Shown here piece by piece: positions 956 through 27,421 of a stretch of DNA of 64,000 bases. A program made the translations under genes and the position numbers. The first letter of the stretch is position 1, and each line of letters begins with the position of its first letter. Source of the stretch: an uncultured Bdellovibrionales bacterium (GTDB taxonomy: Bacteria > Bdellovibrionota_C > UBA2361 > SZUA-149 > CAZDIO01); NCBI GenBank assembly GCA_964505555.1, contig CAZDIO010000102.1:13355-77354 (forward strand), given 5' to 3'. Below the pieces are notes generated by a model. The model worked only from the letters and a program-made list of their open reading frames with translations, was not told where the DNA came from and searched no databases.

Positions 956-1828
956 TTGACAATGTTAGAAGTTTTGAAAAAGCAAGAATCGAACGTGGTA
1001 AATATCGAGCGTCAAGCAGTTGAGCTGCAACCATTTACTCTGCTACTTTCAATCCGCAAACGATACCTGCTTTTTTTATCGCTCTTGATACTTGCTATTA
1101 CTGCTAGCGTGGTGAGCTACTATCTTACTCCTCCACAGTTTGAAAGTAGGGTTGTCGTTATAATTCCAAAAATAACCGATGACGCATTTAATGTGTTTCC
1201 AAATGTAGCGAGTGTTACCTCGAGTTTTATTGAAAAATACGATGTGACCAATGCTCGTCGATCCACAAGAAAGCTGCCTTATATAAATTCTGTGCATCCT
1301 ACTTCTGGTGCTTATGTCAAAGACAGTGATGCAATAGCAATCTCTGCTCGCGGGACAACGATTGGAGAATCAGAGCACTACCTCACTATCGTCGCCAAAC
1401 AGCTCGTTGAGGAACTAAACCTCCCTCTTACTATGGTAAAAAAGAATTGGACCGATTATCTTGATTGGATAACAAGAGAGAGCATTTCATTAGAAGGATC
1501 GATAAAGGATCTCGAAACAAAAACAGCGAATCTTTCTGGAGAAAATGTAGCATTTCATGCGCTGTTGACATTAGAACAAGCAAAAGCTCGCGATAACCTC
1601 TCTGAAATGCGCTCAAAGCTTGCCGCAACGAAGCGACAGTTAGTAATCGCCGATACCTATGCAGCCTCGATCCTTGTAGGACCAAGTCCCGTCTTCGATG
1701 GCAAACCTGTGACACCACGATTTAATGAATTTTTGTTTTTCGGAGTTTTCTTTGGTCTTTTCTTGGCGTGTGTCGGTATATTAGCCGCTGAATGTCTTCC
1801 GCGTATCTCCATTTTTAAGCGGACCTGA
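956..1828 (+). CDS. Wzz/PCP-like polysaccharide chain-length determinant (by topology and context)
   Basis: 290 aa with one N-terminal helix (LLFLSLLILAITASVVSYYL) and one C-terminal helix (FLFFGVFFGLFLACVGILAA) flanking a long hydrophilic middle. It lies at the edge of a glycan locus. The start is uncertain (TTG 956 or ATG 962). Confidence 0.5.
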   Translation: MTMLEVLKKQESNVVNIERQAVELQPFTLLLSIRKRYLLFLSLLILAITASVVSYYLTPPQFESRVVVIIPKITDDAFNVFPNVASVTSSFIEKYDVTNARRSTRKLPYINSVHPTSGAYVKDSDAIAISARGTTIGESEHYLTIVAKQLVEELNLPLTMVKKNWTDYLDWITRESISLEGSIKDLETKTANLSGENVAFHALLTLEQAKARDNLSEMRSKLAATKRQLVIADTYAASILVGPSPVFDGKPVTPRFNEFLFFGVFFGLFLACVGILAAECLPRISIFKRT

Positions 1829-2656
1829 GCATTCAAACACCATCTTGAAGCTATATGGTTCGAGCAACAAAAAACGTTGCATCAGACCCTTATCAAGCTC
1901 ATCAATCAAAGCAAAAAGTTTCTTACAGAGCTTTTCTGGAAGGAGGTGGCGAAGGGGTGCAATGCAAGGCAGAAAAAAATGGAAATGTTTTTTTTCCGCC
2001 CTTGAAAATGAACTTTCAAGTAGAGTAAAATCTTGAGTTTTCATAACGTGCGAAGCCGCCCATCGAGTTCGCGTTCCGCGCCAAACTCCAACCGACCGAT
2101 TGAGGTTAAATATCGGGTTATGACCCAAACATTCGATTCCAAGGAGAACCCCTCGAGGACTTAGCACCCGACACATCTCTTTTAGTGCAGAGGGAAGATT
2201 AAAACTCGAAAATGCTTCATGGTTAATCACGACATCAAAACTATCATCCGCAAAATTGAGTGTGTCCGTATCCATCGTCTGAAACGAAACCTTTTGATGC
2301 AAGCCCCGCTCAAAAGCTCCCTGCGAGGCAACTTGCACAGCCGCTGGAGCGATATCAATACCGATTACTGAAGCAGCACCAAAAGCACCTGCCAAGATAC
2401 TATGTTTTCCAGTTCCACAGCCAACCTCAAGAATTCGTGCTCCCTGACAGATCGCACGAAGCCGGGTAAGAAAAAAATCTTCACTCCTATGGAGGATCTG
2501 TTCGCGCACCTCTGGCGAAGTAAAGTGACGAGAGGCCGCATAAAGCTCTTGATAGACCTCCCGTTCAGTCGCCTTCCACGGATCCTCTGGTAGTAATTCT
2601 CGACCGGAATTAACCACAGTGATCTCTTCCATCGGTCGTTCTTTGGAACTTTGCAT
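1781..2656 (-). CDS. Class I SAM-dependent methyltransferase
   Basis: SAM-binding motif I ILEVGCGTGKHS, followed by a Rossmann-like pattern (VIGIDI ... VVINHEAF). Confidence 0.8.
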   Translation of the reverse strand: MQSSKERPMEEITVVNSGRELLPEDPWKATEREVYQELYAASRHFTSPEVREQILHRSEDFFLTRLRAICQGARILEVGCGTGKHSILAGAFGAASVIGIDIAPAAVQVASQGAFERGLHQKVSFQTMDTDTLNFADDSFDVVINHEAFSSFNLPSALKEMCRVLSPRGVLLGIECLGHNPIFNLNRSVGVWRGTRTRWAASHVMKTQDFTLLESSFSRAEKKHFHFFLPCIAPLRHLLPEKLCKKLFALIDELDKGLMQRFLLLEPYSFKMVFECSGPLKNGDTRKTFSG

Positions 2657-2865: not shown

Positions 2866-3969
2866 ATGAAGCAAATTCCCTATTTTGACTATCCTCATAC
2901 CTTTCGTTCAGAAGAAGAATCTCTTCTTGCGATTATTACTGATATCGGGCGAAGAGGAGCGTTTGTCCTGCAAAACGATCTCACACAGTTTGAAAAGAAT
3001 TTGGCGATCTTTGCAGAGTCCCCCTTCGCGGTAGGAGTTGCAAATGCCACAGATGGACTAACTATCGCTCTGCGAGCAGCAGGGATTGGTCCTGGTGATG
3101 AGGTAATCTTTTGCTCACACACCTTTGTGGCAACTGCTGCTGCAATTCACCATACGGGTGCTACGCCGGTGCCTGTTGAATGCCAAGCTGATCATTTGAT
3201 CGATCCTCACTCAGTGAAAAAAGCGATAACAAAACGCACAAAAGCGATCCTTCCTACACAGCTCAATGGGCGAACCGCAGAAATGGATCTCTTGATGGCG
3301 ATCGCCGAAGAAAACAATCTCCTCCTTATTGAAGATGCGGCACAAGCTCTTGGCTCTCGTTTTAGGGGGAGACAAGCAGGCACTTTTGGGGTTGCCTCAG
3401 CAATTAGCTTTTTCCCTGCAAAATCGCTTGGCTGCTTAGGAGATGGTGGCGCAGTACTTGTTCGAAATGAAGAGCTCTATCACAAAATACGATTAATGAG
3501 AGATCACGGTCGAAGCGCAACCGGTGAAGTTGTGATGTGGGGGGTTAATTCCCGCCTTGATAATTTACAAGCAGCGATATTGGATTATCGATTAAAATCT
3601 TTCGATACGGTCATTGCGCGCCGCAGAAAGATCGCTCAAATCTATCAAGAAGAACTAGAAGCAACGTCCCAAGTTGTTCTCCCACCCGGGCCAAATGCAA
3701 ACAGTGATCACTTTGATACCTTTCAAAATTATGAGATCGAGGCCGAACTGAGAGATGCTTTAAAGAATTTTCTTCGTGAGCAAGGTGTGGGCACTTTGAT
3801 TCAATGGGGAGGAAAAGCGGTACATGAATTTCCAGCGCTGGGATTTCAGGTGAAACTTCCCTTCACAGAAAAAATGTTTGAACGATGTTTGATGCTCCCG
3901 ATGAACATGTCTCTAGCGGATGAAGATGTTCGACATATTTGTACGGTGATAAGAAAGTTTTATGGCTAG
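2866..3969 (+). CDS. DegT/DnrJ/EryC1/StrS-family PLP-dependent sugar aminotransferase
   Basis: Family blocks ATDGLTIALRAAGIGPGDEVI and FFPAKSLGCLGDGGA. The 367-aa length is typical. Confidence 0.9.
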   Translation: MKQIPYFDYPHTFRSEEESLLAIITDIGRRGAFVLQNDLTQFEKNLAIFAESPFAVGVANATDGLTIALRAAGIGPGDEVIFCSHTFVATAAAIHHTGATPVPVECQADHLIDPHSVKKAITKRTKAILPTQLNGRTAEMDLLMAIAEENNLLLIEDAAQALGSRFRGRQAGTFGVASAISFFPAKSLGCLGDGGAVLVRNEELYHKIRLMRDHGRSATGEVVMWGVNSRLDNLQAAILDYRLKSFDTVIARRRKIAQIYQEELEATSQVVLPPGPNANSDHFDTFQNYEIEAELRDALKNFLREQGVGTLIQWGGKAVHEFPALGFQVKLPFTEKMFERCLMLPMNMSLADEDVRHICTVIRKFYG

Positions 3970-4807
3970 TAGTTTTGACGGCCTTGTGCCCGATCCCATC
4001 AGCTCGAAGGAGCTGGCAAAAAGGATTCGAATCCACGCATTAGAAATGGCAAACCGAGGCTCTAGCTCGCATATCGCTTCTAGCCTTTCTATTGCGGACA
4101 TTCTTGCCGTTCTTTATGGAGAGGTTTTGCAGGTAGACCCCACCAATCCTCAGTGGCCTGCTCGAGATCGCTTTATCTTGAGCAAAGGTCATGCTGGAGC
4201 AGCTCTTTATGCAACCCTGGCGGAAAGAGGGTTTTTCCCGCCTGAACGTCTCCTCTCACACTATCAGAATGGTTCCGATCTTAGTGGACATGTATCTCAC
4301 AAAGGTATCCCTGGGGTGGAGCTCTCCACGGGATCTCTAGGACATGGGCTTGGGGTCGGTGCCGGAATGGCATACGGAGCAAGACTTGATGCACAGACTC
4401 ATCGAGTCTTTGTGTTGATGAGTGATGGAGAGTGTGACGAAGGTTCAAATTGGGAAGCTATTTTATTTGCTGCACATCATCAACTTGATAACCTGGTGGC
4501 AATCATCGATTATAATAAGATACAAAGCCTTGCTCCTGTTTCAGAAACGTTGGGACTTGAGCCCTTCCGTGCAAAATGGGAGGCCTTTGGTTGGGAAGTA
4601 AAGGAATTAGATGGTCATCACCATCAGGAACTTTTTAGTGCTTTCTCAAAAATTCCTTTTGAAACAGGAAAGCCAAATTGCATTATTGCTCACACAACCA
4701 AGGGAAAAGGAGTTAAGTTCATGGAAGACTCTGTACTTTGGCACTACCGCACTCCTCAGGGAAGTGAATTTGAACGAGCATTAGCAGAGCTTCATTCTAC
4801 CTTATGA
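3962..4807 (+). CDS. Transketolase, N-terminal (ThDP-binding) subunit of a split enzyme
   Basis: Blocks SKGHAGAALYA, GSLGHGLGVGAGMA and SDGECDEGSNWEA. It overlaps the upstream aminotransferase gene by 8 nt. Confidence 0.85.
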   Translation: MASSFDGLVPDPISSKELAKRIRIHALEMANRGSSSHIASSLSIADILAVLYGEVLQVDPTNPQWPARDRFILSKGHAGAALYATLAERGFFPPERLLSHYQNGSDLSGHVSHKGIPGVELSTGSLGHGLGVGAGMAYGARLDAQTHRVFVLMSDGECDEGSNWEAILFAAHHQLDNLVAIIDYNKIQSLAPVSETLGLEPFRAKWEAFGWEVKELDGHHHQELFSAFSKIPFETGKPNCIIAHTTKGKGVKFMEDSVLWHYRTPQGSEFERALAELHSTL

Positions 4808-5760
4808 GAGATTGTTTTATCTTTAGGCTCTGTCAGATCGCAGAACACAATCCGCGTGTCATGCTCCTTACTGGAGATCTCGGATTTGCGGTGTTTGATG
4901 AATTTCGCAGTCGGTTTCCTCGACAGTTTCTTAATGTCGGTGTTGCAGAACAGAACCTCACCGGGGTAGCAACTGGATTAGCTCTAGAAGGGCGCGTTGT
5001 GTTTACCTACTCAATTGGAAACTTTCCAACTTTGCGTTGCTTAGAGCAGATTCGAAGCGACGTGCTCTATCATAACGCCAATGTAAATATTGTATCCGTG
5101 GGCTCTGGCTTTAGTTATGGTGCGCTTGGAATGTCTCATCATGCGACTGAGGATATAAGCATTATGCGCGCACTCCCTGGTCTGACGATCATGTCCCCAG
5201 GTGATGATTGGGAAGCTGAAGAATGCACCCAGGCACTGGTCATGAAGCAAGGTCCTGGATATCTACGGCTCGATAAATCAAGCGCTGGAAACACAAAAAA
5301 GCCTGGCGAAATCTTTCAATTAGGCCAAGGCCGGGTACTTCGCGAGGGGAATAACGCAACTTTGATTACGACAGGTGGAATTTTGAAGTTAGTGCTTGAA
5401 GTCGCTGATCAACTTGCTCTTGCCAAGCTCCCTTGTCGAGTGATTAGTCTCCCAACTCTAAAACCGTTAGATTGGGGGCTTATTGAACGTGGAGCGATGG
5501 AAACAGGTGGAATCGTGACGATTGAAGAACATACCGTCGAGGGTGGGTTGGGAAGCCTCGTCGCAGAACACTTATTAGAATCAGGAATTATTCCAGAAAA
5601 GTTTTTCCGTATCGGATTGCGAGATGGATTTCCTACTGTCGTGGGAAGCCAGGAGTATCTACGATCAATATGTAAAATTGATTCTCGCAGTATTTTTGAA
5701 ACCCTCGCTAAGTTCCTTCAGCGCGAGGAAAAGCTCCCCCACAGAGGTGTAGCAAGATGA
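4804..5760 (+). CDS. Transketolase, C-terminal (pyrimidine-binding) subunit of a split enzyme
   Basis: Blocks NVGVAEQNLTGVATGLALEGRVVFTYSIGNF and MRALPGLTIMSPGD. ATGA start/stop overlap with 3962-4807. Confidence 0.85.
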   Translation: MRDCFIFRLCQIAEHNPRVMLLTGDLGFAVFDEFRSRFPRQFLNVGVAEQNLTGVATGLALEGRVVFTYSIGNFPTLRCLEQIRSDVLYHNANVNIVSVGSGFSYGALGMSHHATEDISIMRALPGLTIMSPGDDWEAEECTQALVMKQGPGYLRLDKSSAGNTKKPGEIFQLGQGRVLREGNNATLITTGGILKLVLEVADQLALAKLPCRVISLPTLKPLDWGLIERGAMETGGIVTIEEHTVEGGLGSLVAEHLLESGIIPEKFFRIGLRDGFPTVVGSQEYLRSICKIDSRSIFETLAKFLQREEKLPHRGVAR

Positions 5761-6527
5761 AGCGAACACTGGACATCATTGCGGCAACACTTGGACTCAC
5801 TTTTCTGGCTCCTATTTTATCGTGTCTCGCATTTGCAATATGGCTCCAAGATCGGCACTCCCCATTCTATATTAGTCAACGAGTAGGGCGTGGGGGTAAT
5901 GTGTTTCAGATGGTGAAGTTGCGTTCGATGATCGCCTTTGCAGATCGTGCGGGAATTGATTCCACATCAGCAACGGATTCGCGCATTACACCGCTTGGTC
6001 ATTTTATTCGACGGTATAAAATGGATGAGTTATGCCAACTTTGGAATGTTCTAAGAGGTGAGATGAGCTTAGTCGGACCAAGACCGAATGTTCAGTGGGA
6101 CACTCAGCGGTACACCACAGAAGAGAAAAAGCTTCTTACCGTCCGGCCTGGAGTTACTGACTTGGCTTCGATCGTCTTCTCAGATGAGGGAGAAATACTT
6201 CGAGACAGTAGCGATCCGGACCTGGATTACAGCCGCATCATTCGGCCTTGGAAAAATCGGCTTGGATTGATTTATATCGAAAACCAATCCTTTTTCCTTG
6301 ATCTTCGAGTTATTTATCTTACCTGCATTGCGATCATTTCTAAAGATCGCGCACTGCAATCAGTCGTCAAAATTCTTATCGGATTTGGCGCTGACCCACT
6401 CCTGATAAGAATGGCTAGCCGAAAAGAGGCCTTACTTGCATATCCTCCTCCAGGAAGTAACTCCATTGCCACTACAGGGAAACCCGCAGATGAGGGTGCT
6501 GCGATGCCTAAACGACAATGCGGTTAA
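5757..6527 (+). CDS. Bacterial sugar transferase (small monotopic phosphoglycosyl transferase, PglC/WbaP-C type); glycan initiating enzyme
   Basis: N-terminal re-entrant helix (IIAATLGLTFLAPILSCLAFAIWL), then KLRSM and DELCQLWNVLRGEMSLVGPRP. ATGA overlap with the upstream gene. Confidence 0.85.
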   Translation: MKRTLDIIAATLGLTFLAPILSCLAFAIWLQDRHSPFYISQRVGRGGNVFQMVKLRSMIAFADRAGIDSTSATDSRITPLGHFIRRYKMDELCQLWNVLRGEMSLVGPRPNVQWDTQRYTTEEKKLLTVRPGVTDLASIVFSDEGEILRDSSDPDLDYSRIIRPWKNRLGLIYIENQSFFLDLRVIYLTCIAIISKDRALQSVVKILIGFGADPLLIRMASRKEALLAYPPPGSNSIATTGKPADEGAAMPKRQCG

Positions 6528-6536
6528 AACACCAGA

Positions 6537-7292
6537 TTAGTCAATGAAGGCGTACGCCACATAAGGATCGAAATCAAAACGCCGGAGCCTCAATTTATTT
6601 GGTCCTAGCACATCGAGTAGAGCCCCTGTTTCGCCAGGCCAAATCGGATTGTCGAGTTCGTCAAATGCAATAACAGCTCCTTTCGGCATCCGGGGAACAA
6701 AATACTCAAGAGCAATCTTTGTCGGCTCATACAGATCAAGATCTAAATACAAAAGACTCACGACAGTGTGTTTGTTGTTTTCAATAAAAGTTGGGATCGT
6801 TTCACGAACATCTCCCCGGACAAGGTGTACTTTATCAACATGCCCAAGAAACCGGTTATCATCATAAATAGAGATGAGCTGCAAGATTTCATCATAAGAA
6901 TTAGCCGCAAGATCTCCTTTTTGTGGCAAATACTGCTTGCTGTGATCTCGTTGCGTAATTCCATTTAACCCTGAAAAACTATCAAATCCATATATTCTCC
7001 GGGTAAGATTATTTGGTTCAAGAACAGAAGAAAAATGTGCCCAACTCATTAAACCAAACCCCTGATTCACTCCACACTCTATGATTGAACCTTTGACAGG
7101 GAGGCAAAGTTTAAAAAGCTCATAGAGCGTAAGAAATCGTGTTACCTTTTGACGGCGAATGTATTTGGGAAAGTTCTCGAGATTCTGTTCTGTAATCAGG
7201 TTATTTCCGTTAAAGAGCGCCGCAATTCGTTCTCCGATCTCTGCTTCAGTTGTGGTTCTAAGCCCACCTTCAGGAACGACTGATGATTTCAT
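6537..7292 (-). CDS. TylF/MycF-family SAM-dependent (sugar) O-methyltransferase
   Basis: Blocks IECGVNQGFGLM, LLYLDLDLYEPTK and AVIAFDELD match what I recall of the macrocin-O-methyltransferase family. Confidence 0.7.
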   Translation of the reverse strand: MKSSVVPEGGLRTTTEAEIGERIAALFNGNNLITEQNLENFPKYIRRQKVTRFLTLYELFKLCLPVKGSIIECGVNQGFGLMSWAHFSSVLEPNNLTRRIYGFDSFSGLNGITQRDHSKQYLPQKGDLAANSYDEILQLISIYDDNRFLGHVDKVHLVRGDVRETIPTFIENNKHTVVSLLYLDLDLYEPTKIALEYFVPRMPKGAVIAFDELDNPIWPGETGALLDVLGPNKLRLRRFDFDPYVAYAFID

Positions 7293-7457
7293 ATGTCTAA
7301 TTAAACACTAGCTTAGCGGTATTATTCGAGCCGTTTCCGCTCTTTCGTTGACATCCAAAAAGTTATACTCGGAATTAGTAGGCAATAGCAAGTTTTCTTC
7401 TAGAGAGAATTTCTCTCCTCAACCCTTCATTAGGCTCGAGAGAGCACTTTTTTTCAA

Positions 7458-8594
7458 CTATGCTGCCTCCCTCTTCTGTCTCCGATAAAACTCTTCGTAT
7501 CTGCTTGTAATCGCCTGAATGCTAAAAAAAGATTCTATTCGGACCCGAGCGGCGGCGCCTAAGGCTTCTTGTTCCGGTCGACTCATGACGATAATTTTCT
7601 CCCAGCCCTGTGCTAACGCCACAGGAGAGCCGATCGGAACAATGATACCGCTGCTACCGATAAGCGTTCTACAATCTCCGACGTCAGTAACCACGCATGG
7701 GATGCCACAAGCCATCGCTTCTCCAACCACGTTTGGGAAACCTTCACTCTTTGAGGATAAGGTAAAGATATTAAGTGCTGCCATAATTTTCTCAGCATCT
7801 TTTCGTTCCCCAAGCAGACGCACATGAGACGCAAGATCTAATCGCTCAATAATTTTTATAAGCTCAGCATTTGATGAATCAAAACCCTCTCCACAAAGAA
7901 GAAATGTGCATTGTTTGCAACTTTTTCGAAGCTCCGTTGCTGCATTTAAAAAGTTTTCAGGGTCCTTGATAGGATCGTATCGCGCAACCATCCCAATAAG
8001 CATCTCTGTAGGCCCAACATTTAACTCCCTTCTAATTTGCGCTCGTGCTTCTTGATCAGGACGAAACACCGTTGTGTCAAAACCGTTAGGAATTATCTCA
8101 AATCTCTTGGTGTTATATCCCAAACGTTTGTGACTTTCTTTTGCTGCTGAAGAGTTACAGATAATTGCCTTTGGGACACTGTATGAAAGCCACGCGCAGA
8201 GTTTCATTACCATCCATGTTGTCTTCTTTGTTCGTGAAATCTCCACATCACTTCGTCGACAATTCCAAATAACGGGAGCCTTACTTATCAATCGTGTTAC
8301 GACTCCACCAAGAAGATCGGCATGATACATCCATGTTTGAACAATATCTGGAGAAAAAGTTTTTATATAGCGCGCAAGTTTAAAGCTTGCTGATAAGTCA
8401 GGAACCCCTCTTTTCATATTAAGAGTTCTGACAACAATTCCAATCTCCTCAAGACGTTGAGCGATGGGGCCGGGAGAAATAAGAGAGATAACTTCGTTCT
8501 CGAATTCATCCCGATTCATATGTGCAAGCAATTTAAAAAGCATCATTTCAGCACCACCAACGTGCAAACCAGTGATGATGTGGAGGACCTTCAT
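7458..8594 (-). CDS. Glycosyltransferase family 4 (GT-B fold)
   Basis: N-terminal ITGLHVGGAEMM and a C-terminal E(x7)E region SKSEGFPNVVGEAMACGIPCVVTDVGD. Confidence 0.85.
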   Translation of the reverse strand: MKVLHIITGLHVGGAEMMLFKLLAHMNRDEFENEVISLISPGPIAQRLEEIGIVVRTLNMKRGVPDLSASFKLARYIKTFSPDIVQTWMYHADLLGGVVTRLISKAPVIWNCRRSDVEISRTKKTTWMVMKLCAWLSYSVPKAIICNSSAAKESHKRLGYNTKRFEIIPNGFDTTVFRPDQEARAQIRRELNVGPTEMLIGMVARYDPIKDPENFLNAATELRKSCKQCTFLLCGEGFDSSNAELIKIIERLDLASHVRLLGERKDAEKIMAALNIFTLSSKSEGFPNVVGEAMACGIPCVVTDVGDCRTLIGSSGIIVPIGSPVALAQGWEKIIVMSRPEQEALGAAARVRIESFFSIQAITSRYEEFYRRQKREAA

Positions 8595-8673
8595 TACCTA
8601 AAACATCTCCTTGCTTTCATAAGAAAATCCATGTTTATTATATACTTCTGGAAAAATCTATAATTGCCATTAC

Positions 8674-9963
8674 ATGATATTCTCCTTACTTCCGATGTTT
8701 GTTGTCACCACCACTTCTGTCGTAATGCTCTTGGTATGGGGGCTTTCGCAACGTTTCAACCTGCACTCATTGCACAACATTTTTATCCTTATTTGGGCAT
8801 ACTATACGTTTTGTGTCCCGTTGGATTTGATGTTTTTCCCTGAATTACTTTCTCCCTCAGTCGGTGGCATGCCTAATCTCGGAGATGAAACCTTCGGAGA
8901 TGAGATAGGAATTACATTTTTTCATTATCTGATACTTGGCGGCTCATTTTTTTTAATCTACCACTTTCTGCCGGGTGGATCTCATAAAAACCCCAGGTGG
9001 AAATTATTGGAACTTCCTCTTCCCCCTCTCTGGGTGGTGATTACTTTAAATACGTTGGTCTTCGTAGCCTCAGTGGTGCTCATCGGCAGCCTTTCGCGAA
9101 GCGAAGCCGCGCTCTTGGGTGCGACAAATGTTTCATATAAGTTTTTTACGATCCTCACTACATTCGTTCAGGCGCTTAATATTATTTATGTTCATGAGAT
9201 TAACGACCGACGGAAAGCGCTTCTCATAGTACTTGCTTCATTTCTTTTTACACTCGCCACTGGTGGTCGAACGACTTTTGTAATTTTCATGCTCATCTTT
9301 CTCATCCGTTATGAAATACCGATTTCACGAGTTGGGCGAATTGTAACCGGAGTACTCGCCATTTGTTTTGCTGCTTTTTGGAAATTAATCTGGAGCAGTT
9401 TATCCCAGATGATTTTTTTTGGAGGCTCGGCTTCTGCGCTTTTAGACTTACCCTCTGTGACGGTTTCTAACTTTGAGGGGATCGGTCCCTATGAAATATC
9501 GGTATCCCTTCTTCGTCACTGGGGCTCCTCCCCTTGGTTACTGGGAGAGACCTATATCGTTACTCCGTTGCAATTATTGTTCCCACGTTTTCTTAGTTGG
9601 GAGCCGGTACAAACGCTTGCCGAATATTATGGTCAGTTATTCTCGCCAAACTTTGTTGCTCTTGGTGGTGGTATTGGTTTTTCAGCCGTTGGCGAGGCTT
9701 GGCTTAATTTTTCCCACTTTGGGCCTTTTTTACTCGGCTTGGTTTTTGGTTATATCGCTAAATATTATGACAGCCACCCGCGAGGATTGAGTTATTGGAT
9801 AGTCGTTATTGTTTTCTGTAGATTGTTTCGTTCAGATTTTGCTTCCATTTTTAAGAGTTGGTTGCTGATCTTGGGAATCTCTATACTTGTGGTAACAGTA
9901 TGTCTAAGGCTGCTTGGTGAGTTGCAGGCCAAAATGCTGACACAATGCAAGGAAAACCATTGA
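8674..9963 (+). CDS. Wzy-like O-antigen/repeat-unit polymerase (topology and context only)
   Basis: 429 aa, roughly 10-12 hydrophobic helices and no soluble domain. It is embedded in a glycan locus that also has Wzx-like and Wzz-like genes. Confidence 0.5.
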   Translation: MIFSLLPMFVVTTTSVVMLLVWGLSQRFNLHSLHNIFILIWAYYTFCVPLDLMFFPELLSPSVGGMPNLGDETFGDEIGITFFHYLILGGSFFLIYHFLPGGSHKNPRWKLLELPLPPLWVVITLNTLVFVASVVLIGSLSRSEAALLGATNVSYKFFTILTTFVQALNIIYVHEINDRRKALLIVLASFLFTLATGGRTTFVIFMLIFLIRYEIPISRVGRIVTGVLAICFAAFWKLIWSSLSQMIFFGGSASALLDLPSVTVSNFEGIGPYEISVSLLRHWGSSPWLLGETYIVTPLQLLFPRFLSWEPVQTLAEYYGQLFSPNFVALGGGIGFSAVGEAWLNFSHFGPFLLGLVFGYIAKYYDSHPRGLSYWIVVIVFCRLFRSDFASIFKSWLLILGISILVVTVCLRLLGELQAKMLTQCKENH

Positions 9964-10010
9964 AGCAACCGGTTAATTTGGTGGTTTAACGTTAGCGTTA
10001 AAAAGAAACT

Positions 10011-11399
10011 ATGAGATACAGCACACGAATAATATTTCTTCTCTTTCTCTGCTACGTCGTGCTTTTTTGGCTCAATGGCTTAGGCTTTCGTCGGAAAGGA
10101 TACGTCCAAGATGATGCTCTTCAACATGTAATGTATGCTTACAATTTAGTTCATCACGGAGTAATCTCAGATGTACAATGCAGTAAGGAACCGGCCCCAG
10201 AAGCATGCAACCGCTCCCCAAGCGCCTATCGTGGTCCAGGCTATCCCTTCTTTCTCGCTCTCAACATTGCATTGAATCCCAAACTGCGCGCGCTTGACGA
10301 ACAACAGATTGTAAAACCTGAATTCCTTAATCCCCTTAGAAACAGTGAACTGTTGCTTCTCTGGCTCACTTCGATTTTCATTTATAAAATTGTATTTATT
10401 TTGACACAAAGAAGATTTCCCGCATTTGTTGCGCTCCTGAGCGTTGGTTTTAATCCGATTCTCCTAGACTATCAGAATGAATTTTATTCGGAAAATTTCG
10501 GCGCCCTTTTGGTTACAATCCTTTCTTACGCACTGCTCATGGCATACAGAAGTGGCCGATATAGATATTATGGATTGAGTGGATTTCTTACCGGTTGTTT
10601 GACATTAACGATCCCCATTTTTTACTACCTCCCATGGCTTTTTATAATCGTTTCCTTTGGTTTATCTCGAAGCAAAAAGATTCATTATCAACAATGGCTG
10701 AAAACTTCAGGGATATTTTTGATTTGTTTCGCGGGTGTTGTGCTTCCTTGGATGGTGCGTAACTACCTCCATTTTGATCGGTTCTACATTACAGAGCGTG
10801 CTGGAGCGATGCTCAACGTTCGTGCGGAGAAAGATCTCATGAATAAAAAAGAGTTTTTTGCGGCGTTTTGTTATTGGAGCAACTGTTCTTTTTTACAGAG
10901 TTTAAGAAAACCATTTGAGAATGATCCCGCATTTCATCGCCTTATTCGCGGCAATCCAGATAGTTTCTATCGAACCGGAAGAGTTCGCCGATTGGAACTA
11001 AACCGTGAGCATGGTCCGGTGGTGGCAGACAAACTATTACTTCGAGAAGCAGTAGAAAAAATTACTTCGCATCCATTTCGACATCTTGCAGTAACCCTCC
11101 CGGTGATGTTTCGTGGCATGGGAATGCAAAGCTGTGGACTAGATTTTATTCTTTTTGGAAGCACATTACTGTTGTTCCTTGCTTCAATTGCGAAACGTGA
11201 TGGACAACTTTTTATTCTCTTATTACCAACCGCTTACTGCTATGCTTTTTATAGCTTGGTAACTTACCATCTCCCACGGTACAGCCTACCACTTTTGCCA
11301 ATGTTTTGGGTCGCCACAATTGTGGCTCTTTATCGTCTGACAAAGAGAATGGAAACTAACAAAGACGATATGTTCCAAAGCTCTCTTACCAACACTTAG
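10011..11399 (+). CDS. GT-C fold membrane glycosyltransferase (ArnT/PMT, GT39/GT83-like)
   Basis: 462 aa and polytopic. An acidic first loop follows TM1 (YVQDDALQHVMYAYN) and the overall architecture resembles ArnT-type enzymes. Confidence 0.55.
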   Translation: MRYSTRIIFLLFLCYVVLFWLNGLGFRRKGYVQDDALQHVMYAYNLVHHGVISDVQCSKEPAPEACNRSPSAYRGPGYPFFLALNIALNPKLRALDEQQIVKPEFLNPLRNSELLLLWLTSIFIYKIVFILTQRRFPAFVALLSVGFNPILLDYQNEFYSENFGALLVTILSYALLMAYRSGRYRYYGLSGFLTGCLTLTIPIFYYLPWLFIIVSFGLSRSKKIHYQQWLKTSGIFLICFAGVVLPWMVRNYLHFDRFYITERAGAMLNVRAEKDLMNKKEFFAAFCYWSNCSFLQSLRKPFENDPAFHRLIRGNPDSFYRTGRVRRLELNREHGPVVADKLLLREAVEKITSHPFRHLAVTLPVMFRGMGMQSCGLDFILFGSTLLLFLASIAKRDGQLFILLLPTAYCYAFYSLVTYHLPRYSLPLLPMFWVATIVALYRLTKRMETNKDDMFQSSLTNT

Positions 11400-11438
11400 T
11401 ACATGACCACAATTCGTTATGGGTAACGAAAATGAATG

Positions 11439-12557
11439 CTATTGTTCCTTGGATACGGTGCGTGGAAAAGGACTTTGATGCAAGGAATCACTCCCGGGCG
11501 CCCCTGGAGATGAGTCTCCAAATGTCACCGTTCTTCCCAGCTTACGAGATTCGCTCGCAGCTTCCAAGAGCGAAACAACGTCAACACCAGAATTACCATC
11601 CGTAAGTGGGTTTTCATTGTTCACAATACAATGAATGAAATGCTCTGCTTCAACCTGAAGCGGCTCTCGAAATGAAAGTTTCGGAATGACAATATCTCCT
11701 GCTCGTTGAATCAGCGCAAACTGATCATAAGAGTGAAATGGTCTTGCACCCCAAGTATCTTTTACACTTTTTCGCTCAACTCCTTTGTCAAAAACAGTGA
11801 TTTTTTGATCTAGAGAGGTATCATCATAAATCACCATCTTTTTGCTTCCAACGAGTACCCCCTTTCGGGTCTTACTCGGGTCAAGCCAACTTACGTGGAT
11901 GTTGGCAAACTTTCCGCTCGGGAAGCGAAGACTTACGAAGGAGATATCGTCAATATCCTGTTGCAGGTAAGACATCCCGGTTGCGATTACTTCCGTGGGC
12001 TGCTCACCAAACCAGTAGAGCACAATAGAAAGATCATGTGGCGCTAAATTCCATAGCGCATCGACATCTTGCCTTACCTGACCCAAAGCCAAACGCTGCA
12101 TATACACGTAATAAATCTGGCCAAGCTCACCGTCATCAATAAACTTTTTAACCCACCGCACGGCATCGTTGTAAAGGAAGGTGTGTCCCACAGCGAGCTT
12201 AACGTTTTGAAGCTGTGCAAGCTCAACGAGTTCTTTGGCTTCTATTACGGTCGTAGCAAGTGGCTTCTCAACAAAAACATGCTTTCCTCGAAGGATCGCT
12301 GCTTTTGCCTGCCGATAATGTTCCTTTGCAGGACTAGCGATGATTACCGCCTCAATTTCTGATCGGGACAGAAGATCATCCAAAGAACGATCGATATATC
12401 GAACTCGTGGATATTTCTTCTCTATTTCTCTATGTTGCTCCTCTCGCGGCTCACAACAAGCAATAAGATCGCATCCTTCAAGAGAGGAAAAACAGCGCAG
12501 GAGGTTTGCACCCCAGTATCCATAGCCGATCAGTGCGCAATTTATTGTTCGTGACAC
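11439..12557 (-). CDS. Gfo/Idh/MocA-family oxidoreductase, WbpB/WlbA-like sugar-nucleotide 3-dehydrogenase
   Basis: N-terminal Rossmann motif ALIGYGYWG and the VFVEKPLA motif. GTG start at 12557 preceded by gaaggatt. Confidence 0.8.
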   Translation of the reverse strand: MSRTINCALIGYGYWGANLLRCFSSLEGCDLIACCEPREEQHREIEKKYPRVRYIDRSLDDLLSRSEIEAVIIASPAKEHYRQAKAAILRGKHVFVEKPLATTVIEAKELVELAQLQNVKLAVGHTFLYNDAVRWVKKFIDDGELGQIYYVYMQRLALGQVRQDVDALWNLAPHDLSIVLYWFGEQPTEVIATGMSYLQQDIDDISFVSLRFPSGKFANIHVSWLDPSKTRKGVLVGSKKMVIYDDTSLDQKITVFDKGVERKSVKDTWGARPFHSYDQFALIQRAGDIVIPKLSFREPLQVEAEHFIHCIVNNENPLTDGNSGVDVVSLLEAASESRKLGRTVTFGDSSPGAPGSDSLHQSPFPRTVSKEQ

Positions 12558-12752
12558 CGAGTAATCCTTCTTCTGTAATCGCCTTTATTTGCAATCAGTT
12601 ATACGCGCTGGCTGGAGAAAAGAATACGCACCCAATAAATAAACCATCCCCACTAATTCTCACAGTAGACTTGTAATATTACTGGTGCTTGGATAATGTC
12701 AAGGCGAGCTTCAGTAGCCTTGAGATAAGGTGAATTTCGAGTAAAAAAATCG

Positions 12753-13727
12753 ATGCAACTAACGGGAAAAACAGTTCTTGTAACTGGTGGTGCAGGATTC
12801 ATTGGCAGTCATATCGTTGATGAATGCCTAAAGCGTGATGCAAAAAAAGTCATTGTGCTTGATAATTTTGTAATCGGCCACAATACCAATATTACCCATC
12901 TTGAGAATAATACTCGGGTGAAAATTGAAGCTGGGGATGTAAGAGATTTTGACTCTGTTTCTCCTCTTGTTCGCTCAGCTGACATTGTCTTTCATGAAGC
13001 AGCTTCCAAGCTTGTTGTTTCACGCACCCGACCTCGAATTGATCTGGAAACAAATGTAATCGGCACTTTCAATGTGCTTGAAGCCGCGCGGGGAAATAAT
13101 ACACTTATTGTTCACGCTTCTACAGGCTCTGTCCTAGGAAGCGGAGATGATGCAATGAAGGAGCAACACCCTCATAACCCAAGCACCCTTTATGGAATCA
13201 GTAAAAGCACAGCAGAACGGTACTGCCAATTCTATGCGCGCGAATTTGGGGTTCGAGTAGGAATCCTTCGTTACTTTCACGTTTTTGGCCCAAGACAAGA
13301 CTTCGATGGGGAGGCAGGCGTGGTAAGTATCTTTCTTGGTCGTGTACTTCGTAAAGAACCTCCAATTATCTTTGGAACTGGAGAGCAGATTAGATGCCTT
13401 ACTTTTGTAAAAGATGACGTGCAGGCTAATTTTTTACTGCTCAATGAACTTGCGAAAGGAAATTACCTTGGAGAAGTTTTTAATGTTGCCTCAAAAACAC
13501 GCATCGAAGTTGGTGAATTGGCCAAGATGATTATTAGCAAATATGGCCCGGTAAATATGAAACCACAATATGGTCCCTCTCGTCCGGGAGAAAATCTTCG
13601 TCCGATTCCAGATACAGCGAAGATTGAGAGCTTAGGTTTTCGTGAATCCGTAACTTTTGAGCAAGGGTTAGAACACACAAAACAGTGGGTAGAACAAAAA
13701 CTTCATCGGCCTACAGGTTCTTCATGA
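12753..13727 (+). CDS. NAD-dependent epimerase/dehydratase (extended SDR; UDP-sugar 4-epimerase/decarboxylase type)
   Basis: VTGGAGFIGSH Rossmann motif and the YGISKSTAE catalytic YxxxK. Confidence 0.85.
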   Translation: MQLTGKTVLVTGGAGFIGSHIVDECLKRDAKKVIVLDNFVIGHNTNITHLENNTRVKIEAGDVRDFDSVSPLVRSADIVFHEAASKLVVSRTRPRIDLETNVIGTFNVLEAARGNNTLIVHASTGSVLGSGDDAMKEQHPHNPSTLYGISKSTAERYCQFYAREFGVRVGILRYFHVFGPRQDFDGEAGVVSIFLGRVLRKEPPIIFGTGEQIRCLTFVKDDVQANFLLLNELAKGNYLGEVFNVASKTRIEVGELAKMIISKYGPVNMKPQYGPSRPGENLRPIPDTAKIESLGFRESVTFEQGLEHTKQWVEQKLHRPTGSS

Positions 13728-14803
13728 AGAAGCTCAGTTGGCTACAGCTCGTTGGCGTAGTCATTATCGCGCGAATTATTTACAAGCTTGATTTTCAGCA
13801 ATTCTTATCTGTTTTTTCAAATGTTGATTTTCAAGCTCTTACTCTCTCCGCAATATGTTTACTGATTTTTGGTCTCAGTAAAAGTATTCGGTGGTATTCT
13901 TTTTTGCGAATACAAAAATTGCCGCTCCGATTGTTTCAAACGATTAACATCTATCTTATCGGCCAGCTATTTTCTCTTGTAACACCAGCAAAGCTTGGTG
14001 AATTTATCAAGGTTTTCTATGTTGAAAAAGAAACGCCAGTAAATCATTCGCAGGCACTTTCTAGTGTTGTTGCGGATCGTTTATGTGACTTACTCATGCT
14101 TTTTAGTATCGCAATCATTTGTATTCAAGAGAACTTCCTTCCAAAACCATACCAAACCCCGTGCGAGATTGTTAGCGGCCTACTTCTCCTTTCCCTCCTC
14201 CTTCTTCTTCACCGCCGTTCTGCCCTTGTACTGTACGACCTGATTAAGCGCTTGCCGTTTATTGGTTCATATTTCGCAATCAGCCGTAAATTTTTTTCTG
14301 ATTTCTATAATAGCTTCTCACAGTTTAAGTGTAGGATGGTAATCATTCCGATCGCCTTAACTTTTTCAGCTTATCTTTTTCTTTTCTTTCACGCATATTA
14401 CCTTGCTCAAGCCTTACGGATTGATATGACATTGAAAGAAACTGTTTTCTGTATCACGATTTCAAATATCGCAGCACTTCTTCCTATTTCAGTAGGAGGA
14501 TTAGGGCCACGAGAGCAAGCAATGAAGGAGTTTTTCACACGTGTACTTCCTCGGGGAAATACTCTCTCTACAGAAGCACTCTCGTATTTGAGCGCATCTG
14601 CTGTCGGCTTCTCACTTGCTTTTTATGGAATGTTTTTGCTCACTGCTGGTGTTTTTGGGTATATTGCATGGCTGCGAAATCCGGTAAGTTTGTCAAGCGT
14701 ACAACGCCTTGCTGACGAGATTCGATTACAAACAACAAAGCATCGACGAGAAGAAGTTTCTCTTGTGGAAGTAGGTGAGGTTAACGAGGCATGCCACCAA
14801 TAA
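13724..14803 (+). CDS. Flippase-like membrane protein (LPG-synthase transmembrane-region/UPF0104 type)
   Basis: I moved the start to ATG 13724 (MKKLSWLQLVG...), which forms an ATGA overlap with the upstream stop; the track used GTG 13685. About 8 TM helices. This family commonly accompanies GT2 genes. Confidence 0.55.
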   Translation: MKKLSWLQLVGVVIIARIIYKLDFQQFLSVFSNVDFQALTLSAICLLIFGLSKSIRWYSFLRIQKLPLRLFQTINIYLIGQLFSLVTPAKLGEFIKVFYVEKETPVNHSQALSSVVADRLCDLLMLFSIAIICIQENFLPKPYQTPCEIVSGLLLLSLLLLLHRRSALVLYDLIKRLPFIGSYFAISRKFFSDFYNSFSQFKCRMVIIPIALTFSAYLFLFFHAYYLAQALRIDMTLKETVFCITISNIAALLPISVGGLGPREQAMKEFFTRVLPRGNTLSTEALSYLSASAVGFSLAFYGMFLLTAGVFGYIAWLRNPVSLSSVQRLADEIRLQTTKHRREEVSLVEVGEVNEACHQ

Positions 14804-18118: not shown

Positions 18119-18156
18119 TTTTAAGAAGCATGCGTATCGTTTCGAGCAAAGAACGA

Positions 18157-18801: not shown

Positions 18802-18825
18802 AACTATTCTCTCTGCTCTCTGAGT

Positions 18826-25705: not shown

Positions 25706-25872
25706 AGAAAGCTCCGCAATTTAGTAATTGAACCTAAGCCCTACAAATTTTTAGAAGCATAGTCAAGATATTCGGTCTCCTGCCGCCGATGTATTTGCGA
25801 AGACACTATGGAAACACTGTGGAGCCCCTAAGATTCTTGAAGTTTATACTGATGGAAGCTATAAAAGCCCAA

Positions 25873-27412: not shown

Positions 27413-27421
27413 GTATTCCGA

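What the first reader, a model, noticed from the sequence alone, without database searches (positions are those of the whole stretch)
2866..6527. Tightly coupled operon: DegT aminotransferase, split transketolase pair, initiating phosphoglycosyl transferase
Four genes overlap at their junctions (8 nt, ATGA, ATGA). A split ThDP-dependent transketolase placed between a sugar aminotransferase and the initiating transferase is not central-metabolism context. It suggests transfer of a two-carbon ketol unit onto a sugar or sugar-nucleotide intermediate, giving a branched or chain-extended sugar in this glycan. A TylF-type O-methyltransferase lies next door (6537-7292).
Basis: inference. Interest (0 to 1): 0.5.

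Follow-up and report, generated by a model that had tools for sequence, protein, structure and literature searches.

The report
Sugar-tailoring transketolase-like cassette in glycan locus
The split "transketolase" is not the housekeeping enzyme but belongs to a large, uncharacterised, horizontally spread family that travels with a sugar aminotransferase (or a reductase), a nucleotide-sugar O-methyltransferase and the initiating transferase, and most likely builds an unusual carbon-branched amino sugar that starts a surface polysaccharide.

Summary
Four + strand genes (DegT aminotransferase, Transketolase_N, Transket_pyr+C, small phosphoglycosyl transferase) overlap by 8, 4 and 4 nt. A TylF/CalS11-type O-methyltransferase converges on them, inside a 27-kb Wzx/Wzy glycan locus.

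The pair keeps the ThDP machinery but replaces the residues that bind sugar phosphates. In E. coli numbering, His461 becomes Gly, Asp469 becomes Leu and Arg520 becomes Lys. All 67 related loci and the 150 best cluster representatives share this signature.

At least 584 species genomes from more than 12 phyla carry relatives at 64-75% identity, nearly always in glycan loci. The cassette PGT + TylF-MT + DegT + TktN + TktC recurs. DegT and an aldo-keto reductase are mutually exclusive neighbours (47 versus 12 loci) and swap on closely related TK backbones. Elsewhere the TK-like subunits are fused to an NDP-sugar-type SDR, in a CDP-glucose 4,6-dehydratase operon, or to a Zn-alcohol dehydrogenase.

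Best reading (about 0.45): the pair transfers a C2 ketol to an NDP-keto-sugar, the new ketone is transaminated, the sugar is O-methylated, and it is loaded onto undecaprenyl phosphate. No biochemistry exists. The only literature on this arrangement in a polysaccharide cluster is an Actinoplanes cluster described without an assigned function.

The parts
1781..2656 (-). Class I SAM methyltransferase (Methyltransf_11/25/31), transcribed divergently from the operon. It belongs to a recurrent neighbour cluster (c11, 9 members in 8 loci).
   Evidence: Pfam; clustering
2866..3969 (+). DegT/DnrJ/EryC1-family PLP sugar aminotransferase (DegT1). The PLP lysine lies in SFFPAKSLG. It is closest to DesV/QdtB/WbpE-type enzymes. 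Cassette-linked orthologues are 53-63% identical across phyla.
3962..4807 (+). TK-like N (ThDP/PP-domain) subunit. It keeps His26/66/100/261, Asp155 and Asn185 (E. coli numbering). Family signatures are SSH, SDGECDEGSNWEA and LWHYR.
4804..5760 (+). TK-like C (Pyr + C-terminal domain) subunit, starting 'MR'. Glu411, His473 and Arg358 are kept. His461 becomes Gly, Asp469 becomes Leu, Arg520 becomes Lys and Ser385 becomes Ala.
5757..6527 (+). Small monotopic polyprenyl-phosphate phosphoglycosyl transferase (Bac_transf). The DE dyad and PRP motif are present. Cassette-linked orthologues are 42-59% identical.
6537..7292 (-). TylF-family O-methyltransferase, convergent with the operon. Its best solved relative is CalS11, a TDP-rhamnose 3'-O-methyltransferase (160 bits). 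Orthologues at 52-62% identity occur in 33 of 73 loci.
12753..13727 (+). RmlB/LegB-like NDP-hexose 4,6-dehydratase-type SDR, a candidate supplier of the NDP-4-keto-6-deoxy sugar. A 38%-identical homologue lies directly after TktC in L004 and L005.
7458..16825 (.). Rest of the assembly machinery: GT4 (7458-8594), Wzy-like polymerase (8674-9963), UDP-GlcNAc 3-dehydrogenase-like GFO oxidoreductase (11439-12557) and Wzx-like flippase (15524-16825). These give the context of a Wzx/Wzy-dependent glycan.

Best explanation
TktN/TktC form a ThDP-dependent, transketolase-fold carboligase that has left the pentose-phosphate pathway and works in nucleotide-sugar tailoring. The proposed pathway has five steps, and all five are inferred.

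1. An NDP-hexose 4,6-dehydratase supplies an NDP-4-keto-6-deoxy sugar. In this window the candidate is the SDR at 12753-13727; PglF-like or RfbG enzymes fill the role in other loci.
2. The TK-like heterotetramer loads a C2 dihydroxyethyl unit on ThDP, from hydroxypyruvate or a ketose donor. It adds this unit to the sugar carbonyl, giving a hydroxyacetyl-branched (or chain-extended) NDP-sugar with a new side-chain ketone.
3. DegT1 transaminates that ketone. In sister cassettes an AKR, SDR or Zn-ADH reduces it instead.
4. The CalS11-like enzyme O-methylates the NDP-sugar.
5. The co-inherited small PGT transfers the finished sugar-1-phosphate to undecaprenyl phosphate as the first residue of a Wzx/Wzy-made repeat unit.

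What is shown: the gene anatomy, the active-site substitutions, and the co-occurrence, alternation and fusion patterns. What is inferred: substrates, order of steps and product.
For: The cofactor and catalytic residues are intact, but His461 becomes Gly (67/67 loci, 146/150 representatives). Asp469 becomes Leu and is never Asp. Arg520 is mostly Lys.

The family is separated from the canonical split TK: 221 bits or more for the 150 best representatives, against 180 bits for the C. hydrogenoformans enzyme.

At least 584 species genomes carry relatives. Among 73 loci, the neighbours are TktC in 67, DegT in 50, PGT in 43, TylF-MT in 33 and a PglF-like dehydratase in 22.

DegT and AKR are mutually exclusive (47 versus 12 loci, no overlap). 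They are interleaved on the TktC tree. A class I methyltransferase occurs only with DegT (23/47 versus 0/12, p=0.0018).

There are two independent fusions. One joins an extended SDR to TktN in a Paenibacillus operon of order rfbF, rfbG, sugar C-methyltransferase, SDR-TktN, TktC, TylF. The other joins TktC to a Zn-ADH (P0372).

The methyltransferase's nearest solved relative acts on a TDP-sugar. No nucleotidyltransferase is conserved in the cassette, so the substrate is probably already nucleotide-activated.

There is chemical precedent. YerE/YerF and E1-like enzymes branch NDP-4-keto sugars, and split TKs have been proposed for miharamycin and amipurimycin (PMC12247030).
Against: There is no biochemical or glycan-structure data for any member. 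The only published cluster (Actinoplanes wps-2) has no assigned function and no deletion phenotype.

A 4,6-dehydratase is adjacent in only about a third of loci.

DegT plus a small PGT is by itself a known pair for 4-amino sugars (my recollection of WcfR/WcfS in Bacteroides fragilis; not checked with the tools). DegT1 could therefore act on ring C4 independently of the TK.

I know of no described polysaccharide sugar with a 1-amino-2-hydroxyethyl branch. Donor identity is unknown. TK activity on ketone acceptors is unproven even in the antibiotic cases.
Confidence: 0.45

Rival explanations
1. DegT1 (or the AKR in sister loci) acts directly on ring C4 of an NDP-4-keto-6-deoxy sugar, giving a 4-amino or 4-hydroxy initiating sugar in the manner of PglE/WcfR. 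The TK-like pair does something separate for the same glycan, such as making a donor or substituent precursor.
For: The order PglF-like, DegT..., PGT mimics the bacillosamine and AATGal pathways, with TktNC in the position of the acetyltransferase. DegT/AKR swapping would also be expected for a 4-amino versus 4-hydroxy choice.
Against: It leaves the most conserved genes of the cassette without a role. It does not explain two independent fusions of TK-like subunits to carbonyl reductases. DegT1 is far from the PglE/PseC type (about 110 and 93 bits) and closest to DesV/QdtB/WbpE (207-233 bits).
Confidence: 0.17
2. The order is reversed. The oxidoreductase or aminotransferase generates the carbonyl (from an alcohol or amine), and the TK-like enzyme then extends it by two carbons. 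The result is a higher-carbon ketose (ulose) sugar that keeps the ketol.
For: The fusions and tight coupling fit either order. The TK active site is the same in the DegT and AKR variants.
Against: Sugar aminotransferases and AKRs normally run towards the amine or alcohol (established enzymology). The DegT-specific methyltransferase suggests the amine persists in the product.
Confidence: 0.1
3. The pair acts on small molecules. It would work as a decarboxylase or carboligase producing a small aldehyde or ketone, which is aminated (DegT) or reduced (AKR) to an amino-alcohol or polyol substituent of the glycan. This would be analogous to phosphonopyruvate or sulfopyruvate decarboxylase followed by a transaminase or reductase.
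For: The same decarboxylase-then-amine-or-alcohol logic applies. The variant C cassettes add a methionine-aminotransferase-like class I enzyme that could supply a 2-oxo-acid.
Against: No PEP mutase, ligase or phosphotransferase to attach such a group is conserved. The DegT, CalS11-like MT and extended SDR partners are nucleotide-sugar enzyme types.
Confidence: 0.1
4. It is an ordinary housekeeping split transketolase of the pentose-phosphate pathway that merely sits in the glycan locus.
For: The best NCBIfam hit is a 'transketolase' equivalog (274 and 161 bits). The closest solved structure is a genuine split TK.
Against: Scores are below the curated cut-off (488). The phosphate- and C2-OH-binding residues are replaced family-wide. 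The glycan-locus context is conserved across phyla and identity is 64-75% between phyla, which indicates transfer as a cassette. One copy is plasmid-borne in Paenibacillus.
Confidence: 0.03

Closest known systems
Split-gene transketolase of Carboxydothermus hydrogenoformans (PDB 6YAK/6YAJ)
   Same: It has the same two-ORF architecture (PP-domain subunit plus Pyr/C-domain subunit). It is the best solved match, at 267 and 180 bits, and shares all ThDP-binding and catalytic His/Glu residues.
   Different: That enzyme keeps His461, Glu468-Asp469 and Arg520 (the THAGLTVGEDGASHQ and RLGRS motifs). The window protein has VGSGFSYGALGMSHH and RLDKS, starts 'MR' with a shorter N-terminus, and lies in a glycan locus.
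YerE/YerF (yersiniose A) and E1-like alpha/beta ThDP enzymes (aldgarose, kibdelomycin sugars)
   Same: The proposed logic is the same: a ThDP carboligase adds a C2 unit to an NDP-4-keto-6-deoxy sugar, and the branch ketone is then processed. YerE works in an O-antigen (PMC12247030).
   Different: The ThDP fold differs. YerE is decarboxylase/ALS-type and the others are 2-oxo-acid dehydrogenase E1-type, whereas the best Pfam match here is Transketolase_N/Transket_pyr. Here the branch would be hydroxyacetyl and is aminated, not only reduced.
Split-gene transketolases proposed for miharamycin/amipurimycin, plus 13 Streptomyces BGC transketolases (Krug et al. 2024, as cited in PMC12247030)
   Same: They are split TKs proposed to transfer hydroxyacetyl to a keto sugar.
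   Different: Those are in antibiotic clusters, all from Streptomycetes, and are themselves unproven. The present family is pan-bacterial, sits in surface-glycan loci and is coupled to the initiating PGT. Sequence relationship to them could not be tested because no sequences were available.
Actinoplanes missouriensis wps-2 cluster (AMIS_56700-56760)
   Same: It has the same arrangement: SAM methyltransferase, TK-N, TK-C, DegT, a Bac_transf-domain protein and Wzx/Wzy (PMC13390465).
   Different: It was only described in silico. Deletion gave no sporangium phenotype, and no function was assigned to the TK genes. Its PGT is fused to a GNAT domain.
PglF-PglE-PglD-PglC (bacillosamine) / WcfR-WcfS (AATGal) initiating-sugar modules
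   Same: They combine a dehydratase, a DegT aminotransferase and a small monotopic PGT to make and load the first sugar of a repeat unit (established knowledge; context).
   Different: Here a TK-like pair replaces the N-acetyltransferase. DegT1 is not PglE-like, and DegT can be exchanged for a reductase.

Membership tests
Canonical transketolase (EC 2.2.1.1) | ThDP/Mg2+ binding motif (GDG...N) and the cofactor-activating Glu | tested here: met
   Asp155 and Asn185 are present in 73/73 loci (motif reads SDGE...DYN). Glu411 is present in 67/67.
Canonical transketolase (EC 2.2.1.1) | Catalytic histidines His26, His66, His100, His261 and His473 (E. coli numbering) | tested here: met
   All are invariant in the family alignments.
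Canonical transketolase (EC 2.2.1.1) | Sugar-phosphate binding residues Arg358, Ser385, His461 and Arg520 | tested here: not met
   Arg358 is kept. Ser385 is Ala in the window and Gly in most loci. His461 is Gly in 67/67 loci. Arg520 is Lys in the window (47 Lys, 19 Arg across loci).
Canonical transketolase (EC 2.2.1.1) | Asp469, which binds the C2-OH of the aldose acceptor | tested here: not met
   It is Leu in 65/67 loci and in 108/150 representatives, and never Asp.
Canonical transketolase (EC 2.2.1.1) | Reaches the curated family score | tested here: not met
   NF004559 scores 274 bits (N subunit) and 161 bits (C subunit) against a cut-off of 488. TIGR00232 scores 158 and 42 against 682.
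Canonical transketolase (EC 2.2.1.1) | Is the genome's pentose-phosphate transketolase (no other tkt present) | not testable with these tools
Split-gene transketolase architecture | Separate PP-domain and Pyr+C-domain ORFs that are translationally coupled | tested here: met
   ATGA overlap at 4804-4807. A 4-nt overlap occurs in 30 of 66 loci.
YerE-type (decarboxylase/ALS-fold) sugar-branching ThDP enzymes | TPP_enzyme_N/M/C fold | tested here: not met
   Pfam gives only Transketolase_N, Transket_pyr and Transketolase_C.
E1-like (alpha-KADH2) sugar-branching enzymes | E1_dh alpha subunit plus E1 beta subunit as the best family match | tested here: not met
   E1_dh appears only as a weak precomputed hit, and PDH E1 NCBIfam scores are 51 bits or less. 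TK models score far higher.
DegT/DnrJ/EryC1/StrS sugar aminotransferases | Pfam PF01041 over the full length, and the PLP-binding Lys | tested here: met
   318 bits over residues 18-362. The Lys in SFFPAKSLG aligns with the SFYPTKNLG motif of 7B0D.
Monotopic phosphoglycosyl transferases (Bac_transf/PglC-like) | PF02397 domain, N-terminal hydrophobic helix, Asp-Glu dyad and PRP motif | tested here: met
   170 bits. The motifs LGLTFLAPIL..., KMDELCQLWNVL and VGPRP are present. It matches the WbaP catalytic domain and PglC.
TylF/CalS11 nucleotide-sugar O-methyltransferases | PF05711 above its cut-off, and similarity to a characterised NDP-sugar O-methyltransferase | tested here: met
   41 bits against a cut-off of 23. 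CalS11 scores 160 bits, E=5e-46, over residues 15-247. Substrate and regiochemistry were not tested.

The most novel reading that the evidence does not exclude
This would be a previously unrecognised, pan-bacterial family of transketolase-fold enzymes that forge C-C bonds on nucleotide-activated keto sugars. A mobile five-gene cassette would make a C2-branched, aminated and O-methylated sugar, a structure not yet described in any glycan. It would install that sugar as the initiating residue of surface polysaccharides in hundreds of species from Planctomycetota to Cyanobacteria.
Probability: 0.4. Interest if true: 0.75.

Novelty: new variant of a known kind. Interest (0 to 1): 0.6.

Why it matters
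If correct, it adds a third ThDP enzyme fold (transketolase) to the short list of catalysts that branch nucleotide sugars. It would also give the first natural TK-type enzymes working on ketone or NDP-sugar acceptors, which biocatalysis groups are actively seeking for tertiary-alcohol synthesis (PMC12247030). It predicts an undescribed class of branched amino sugars at the reducing end of surface glycans in many environmentally dominant but poorly studied phyla. It also corrects a widespread annotation, since hundreds of genomes label these genes simply 'transketolase'. The DegT/AKR/SDR/ADH alternation gives a ready-made natural series for enzymology.

Tried and rejected
- **Literature.** Six full-text searches found no functional study of TK genes in polysaccharide loci. 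Only the Actinoplanes description and a review of ThDP tertiary-alcohol enzymes turned up.
- **Organism identity.** Exact-cluster look-up gave no names. The best named isocitrate dehydrogenase hits are only 64-68% identical and come from unrelated lineages: Acidobacteriota/Thermoanaerobaculum, Silvanigrella, Fluviispira and Vampirovibrio. The lineage is unresolved.
- **Source contig.** The window's own contig was not retrievable beyond short Logan fragments, so a second tkt could not be sought.
- **Phosphonate route.** A PEP mutase plus decarboxylase plus transaminase pathway was considered and rejected, because no mutase occurs among the conserved neighbours.
- **N-acylation.** Making a glycolyl group from the ThDP intermediate was rejected. 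There is no E2, ACP or other oxidant partner, and the AKR variant lacks an amine.
- **RNA and signals.** Rfam found no RNA element in the window. The promoter and terminator scans were at background level.
- **Plasmid search.** It mostly returned about 37%-identical Rhizobium 'transketolase family' genes, which were not pursued.
- **Structure prediction.** It was not run, because the active site lies between subunits and single-chain models would not resolve the substrate.


Full report
**Observation**

The four ORFs exist exactly as described: 2866-3969, 3962-4807, 4804-5760 and 5757-6527, all on the + strand. Their junctions are ATGGCTAG (8-nt overlap), ATGA and ATGA. Pfam and NCBIfam assign them as follows:
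- a DegT/DnrJ/EryC1 aminotransferase (318 bits);
- a Transketolase_N protein (147 bits);
- a Transket_pyr plus Transketolase_C protein (91 and 78 bits);
- a small Bac_transf phosphoglycosyl transferase (170 bits).

The TylF-type methyltransferase at 6537-7292 is real (41 bits, cut-off 23). It lies on the - strand and converges on the operon.

The surrounding 27 kb is a Wzx/Wzy-type glycan locus. It contains:
- GT4 and GT2 glycosyltransferases, a Wzy-like polymerase and a Wzx-like flippase;
- a UDP-GlcNAc 3-dehydrogenase-like GFO oxidoreductase;
- an RmlB/LegB-like 4,6-dehydratase-type SDR;
- two further DegT genes and a NeuD/PglB-type acetyltransferase;
- polyprenyl-phosphate glycosyl synthase-like genes.

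**The TK-like pair itself**

The closest solved structure is the genuine split transketolase of Carboxydothermus hydrogenoformans: 6YAK for the N subunit (267 bits) and 6YAJ for the C subunit (180 bits). I aligned the window proteins and their relatives with E. coli TktA (fetched), human TK and the C. hydrogenoformans chains.

The N subunit keeps His26, His66, His100, His261, Asp155 and Asn185 in all 73 relatives. The C subunit keeps Glu411, His473 and Arg358. Arg358 is residue 2 of a protein that always starts 'MR'.

The residues that hold the phosphate and the C2-hydroxyl of a sugar-phosphate substrate in canonical enzymes are replaced (established transketolase structure-function knowledge; counts):

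| E. coli position | Replacement in the family |
|---|---|
| His461 | Gly (67/67) |
| Asp469 | Leu (65/67) |
| Glu468 | Ala, Ser, Pro or Gln |
| Ser385 | mostly Gly (Ala in the window) |
| Arg520 | Lys (47) or Arg (19) |
| Leu466 | Tyr |
| Gln474 | His |

An exhaustive HMMER search of 1.84 billion cluster representatives returned 150 best hits at 221 bits or more. All are about 300-315 aa 'MR...' proteins carrying the same xGxGxxYGxLGxSHH signature. None has Asp at position 469.

The cofactor chemistry of a transketolase is therefore retained. That includes the histidines that in canonical enzymes contact the hydroxyl of the dihydroxyethyl-ThDP intermediate. The substrate pocket, however, is consistently different. 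This is a large, distinct TK-like family, and the window pair is a typical member.

**Distribution and context**

The N subunit has relatives at 68-75% identity in Cyanobacteria, Planctomycetota and Deltaproteobacteria. A scan of one genome per species found at least 584 genomes encoding a relative. The best 80 are 64-73% identical and span many groups:
- Planctomycetota, Gemmatimonadota, Cyanobacteria, Bacteroidota and Acidobacteriota;
- Nitrospirota, Nitrospinota, Armatimonadota, Verrucomicrobiota and Bacillota;
- Actinomycetota, Bdellovibrionota, and alpha-, beta-, gamma- and delta-Proteobacteria.

Identity this high across phyla indicates horizontal spread.

I called ORFs in all loci and clustered the neighbours. 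Among 73 loci with TktN, the counts are:

| Neighbour | Loci (of 73) |
|---|---|
| TktC | 67 |
| DegT | 50 |
| small PGT | 43 |
| TylF-type methyltransferase | 33 |
| about 424-aa GT4 | 30 |
| about 273-aa class I methyltransferase | 28 |
| PglF/CapD-like UDP-GlcNAc 4,6-dehydratase | 22 |
| aldo-keto reductase | 12 |
| methionine-aminotransferase-like class I enzyme | 6 |

The cassette-linked partners are themselves unusually conserved relative to the window: DegT 53-63%, TylF-MT 52-62% and PGT 42-59% identity. The window's order DegT-TktN-TktC-PGT recurs, for example in L006, L008, L036, L066, L071 and L075.

The unit under selection is therefore a cassette of PGT, TylF-MT, DegT, TktN and TktC.

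**Clues to mechanism**

1. **DegT and AKR alternate.** They are mutually exclusive partners: 47 loci have DegT and no AKR, and 12 have AKR, usually directly upstream of TktN, and no DegT. On a TktC tree the two kinds are interleaved, even as sister taxa, with no change in the TK active-site columns. The partner has therefore been swapped repeatedly on the same TK. A third variant forms its own clade, with a DegT only 36-43% identical to the window's, usually a class I aminotransferase (6 of 8 loci), and Arg520.
2. **A DegT-specific methyltransferase.** The about 273-aa class I methyltransferase occurs only with DegT (23/47 versus 0/12, Fisher p=0.0018). This is what would be expected of an N-methyltransferase acting on the introduced amine, though that role is inferred.
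3. **Two independent fusions.**
   - In Paenibacillus cellulosilyticus plasmid NZ_CP054609.1, the order of genes is rfbF (glucose-1-phosphate cytidylyltransferase), rfbG (CDP-glucose 4,6-dehydratase), a sugar C-methyltransferase, a 635-aa fusion protein, TktC, a TylF-type methyltransferase and a GT2.
   - The fusion joins an extended, NDP-sugar-type SDR domain to a Transketolase_N domain. The TktC that follows is 44% identical to the window's and has the same signature.
   - Separately, representative P0372 fuses TktC to a Zn-dependent alcohol dehydrogenase.
   - Carbonyl-processing enzymes of four different folds (DegT, AKR, SDR, MDR) are thus coupled to this TK-like enzyme.
4. **The methyltransferase partner.** Its nearest solved relative is CalS11, which methylates TDP-rhamnose at the nucleotide-sugar stage (160 bits).
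5. **No activating enzyme.** No nucleotidyltransferase is conserved in the cassette, whereas 4,6-dehydratase-type SDRs are often contiguous with it. Examples are PglF-like genes in L064, L071 and L075, and an RmlB-like SDR directly after TktC in L004 and L005. That SDR is 38% identical to the window's gene at 12753-13727.
6. **The aminotransferase partner.** DegT1 is a bona fide aminotransferase with its PLP lysine present. It resembles DesV, QdtB and WbpE (207-233 bits) much more than PglE or PseC (111 and 93 bits).

**Best explanation**

The simplest scheme that gives every conserved gene a role has five steps.
1. A 4,6-dehydratase makes an NDP-4-keto-6-deoxy sugar.
2. TktN/TktC transfers a ThDP-bound C2 ketol unit to that carbonyl. 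This creates a hydroxyacetyl-branched (or extended) NDP-sugar with a new ketone.
3. DegT1 aminates that ketone. AKR, SDR or ADH reduce it in sister cassettes.
4. The CalS11-like enzyme O-methylates the sugar.
5. The co-inherited PGT loads the product on undecaprenyl phosphate as the initiating sugar.

This parallels YerE/YerF in yersiniose biosynthesis and the E1-like branching enzymes of antibiotic sugars. It matches the still unproven proposal for split transketolases in miharamycin and amipurimycin (PMC12247030). That review states that the 13 TK candidates found by genome mining are all from Streptomycetes and are uncharacterised. The pan-bacterial glycan-locus family seen here is not covered there.

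The donor (hydroxypyruvate, a ketose, or pyruvate), the acceptor position and the order of steps are inferred, not shown. I put this scheme at about 0.45. The weaker claim, that the pair is a specialised, non-housekeeping, glycan-dedicated ThDP carboligase, I put at about 0.85.

**Rivals**

- **DegT1 or AKR acts on ring C4** (PglE/WcfR-like) and the TK does something separate. This is compatible with the PglF-DegT-...-PGT order and with the swapping. It leaves the TK unexplained and does not predict the fusions (0.17).
- **Reverse order**, with carbonyl generation followed by C2 extension to a higher ketose (0.10).
- **A small-molecule route**, from decarboxylase to aldehyde to an amine or alcohol substituent. 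No attaching enzyme is conserved (0.10).
- **Housekeeping transketolase.** This is contradicted by the active-site substitutions, sub-threshold family scores, context, horizontal spread and a plasmid-borne copy (0.03).

**Comparison with what is known, and novelty**

By fold and architecture this is a split transketolase. By the defining substrate-binding residues and the curated score thresholds it is not a member of EC 2.2.1.1. It probably works like the YerE and E1-type sugar-branching enzymes but has a different fold.

The only published description of the same arrangement that I found is the Actinoplanes missouriensis wps-2 cluster. There the genes were listed by domain, no function was proposed and deletion had no visible phenotype (PMC13390465).

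I rate it a new variant of a known kind: ThDP-dependent nucleotide-sugar branching, here by a TK-fold enzyme coupled to transamination and to the initiating transferase. Interest is 0.6. It is a well-delimited, widely distributed, testable enzyme family with likely new sugar chemistry, but everything beyond the comparative genomics is inference.

**Limits**

The organism is unresolved. My ORF calling in the fetched loci is crude: it takes longest ORFs with greedy overlap removal. Some start sites and a few small genes are therefore wrong, and 13 of 86 sequences examined gave no TktN call at my threshold. Co-occurrence was counted within six genes upstream and seven downstream of TktN.

Noticed in passing
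window 36658-40814 (skew minimum about 38-40 kb): An RPA-type replication initiator (PF10134; 36658-38235, - strand) is followed by a roughly 900-bp lower-GC intergenic region and then ParA (39131-39913) and ParB (39894-40814). The window's cumulative GC skew has its minimum exactly here: negative from 1 to 38 kb and positive from 40 to 64 kb. This looks like the replication origin of a RepA-initiated replicon that also carries housekeeping genes (icd, hemB/hemD, a serA-like gene, flhA, flagellin). Only a few weak repeats lie in the intergenic region.
   Followed up: partly
L087 7097-10685 (Paenibacillus cellulosilyticus plasmid NZ_CP054609.1): A 635-aa fusion of an extended SDR (PF01370) with Transketolase_N lies between rfbF, rfbG and a sugar C-methyltransferase on one side and TktC plus a TylF O-methyltransferase on the other. 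This is a culturable system in which the TK-like reaction on a CDP-4-keto-6-deoxyglucose-derived sugar could be tested.
   Followed up: partly
protein P0372 (658 aa): A TK-like C subunit is fused to a Zn-dependent medium-chain alcohol dehydrogenase (ADH_N plus ADH_zinc_N). This is a second independent fusion of the family to a carbonyl reductase. Its genomic context is unknown.
   Followed up: partly
L088 (Azospirillum argentinense Az39 plasmid p5, NZ_CP007798.1) 4186-13065: A more distant TK-like pair (37% identity; motif AGGGYIYAPSGVTHH) is flanked by two B12-binding radical SAM enzymes, a class I methyltransferase, an SDR and a kinase. This suggests another, non-glycan use of the family.
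   Followed up: no
L004 1-489 (Deltaproteobacteria MAG JACPAL010000015.1): A second Transket_pyr/Transketolase_C gene lies 10 kb upstream of the cassette in the same capsule-like region, which also has Wzz, Wza-like and KDO genes.
   Followed up: no
window 10011-11399, 13685-15564, 20102-21352, 25789-26904: Several genes look like a polyprenyl-phosphate-sugar based periplasmic glycan-decoration system embedded in the same locus. They are a PMT_2-like and a DUF2142 membrane protein, an LPG_synthase_TM/flippase-like protein overlapping a PpgS-like GT2, and an AglJ-like GT2.
   Followed up: no
window 11439-12557 and 17015-19965: A UDP-GlcNAc 3-dehydrogenase-like GFO oxidoreductase, two DegT aminotransferases and a NeuD/PglB-type hexapeptide acetyltransferase form a WbpB/WbpE/WbpD-like set. 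It predicts a 3-acetamido (or di-N-acetylated) sugar in the same glycan. A DegT plus Hexa pair also neighbours the cassette in L014 and L020.
   Followed up: no
window 26924-29185: A 162-aa ORF with no Pfam match is followed by a UbiD-family (prenyl-FMN) decarboxylase, immediately after the glycan locus. Any relation to the locus is unknown.
   Followed up: no
window 22153-25436: A 624-aa sulfatase-superfamily protein (LTA-synthase or phosphoethanolamine-transferase-like size) overlaps a 477-aa ORF with no family match on the - strand, within the glycan locus.
   Followed up: no
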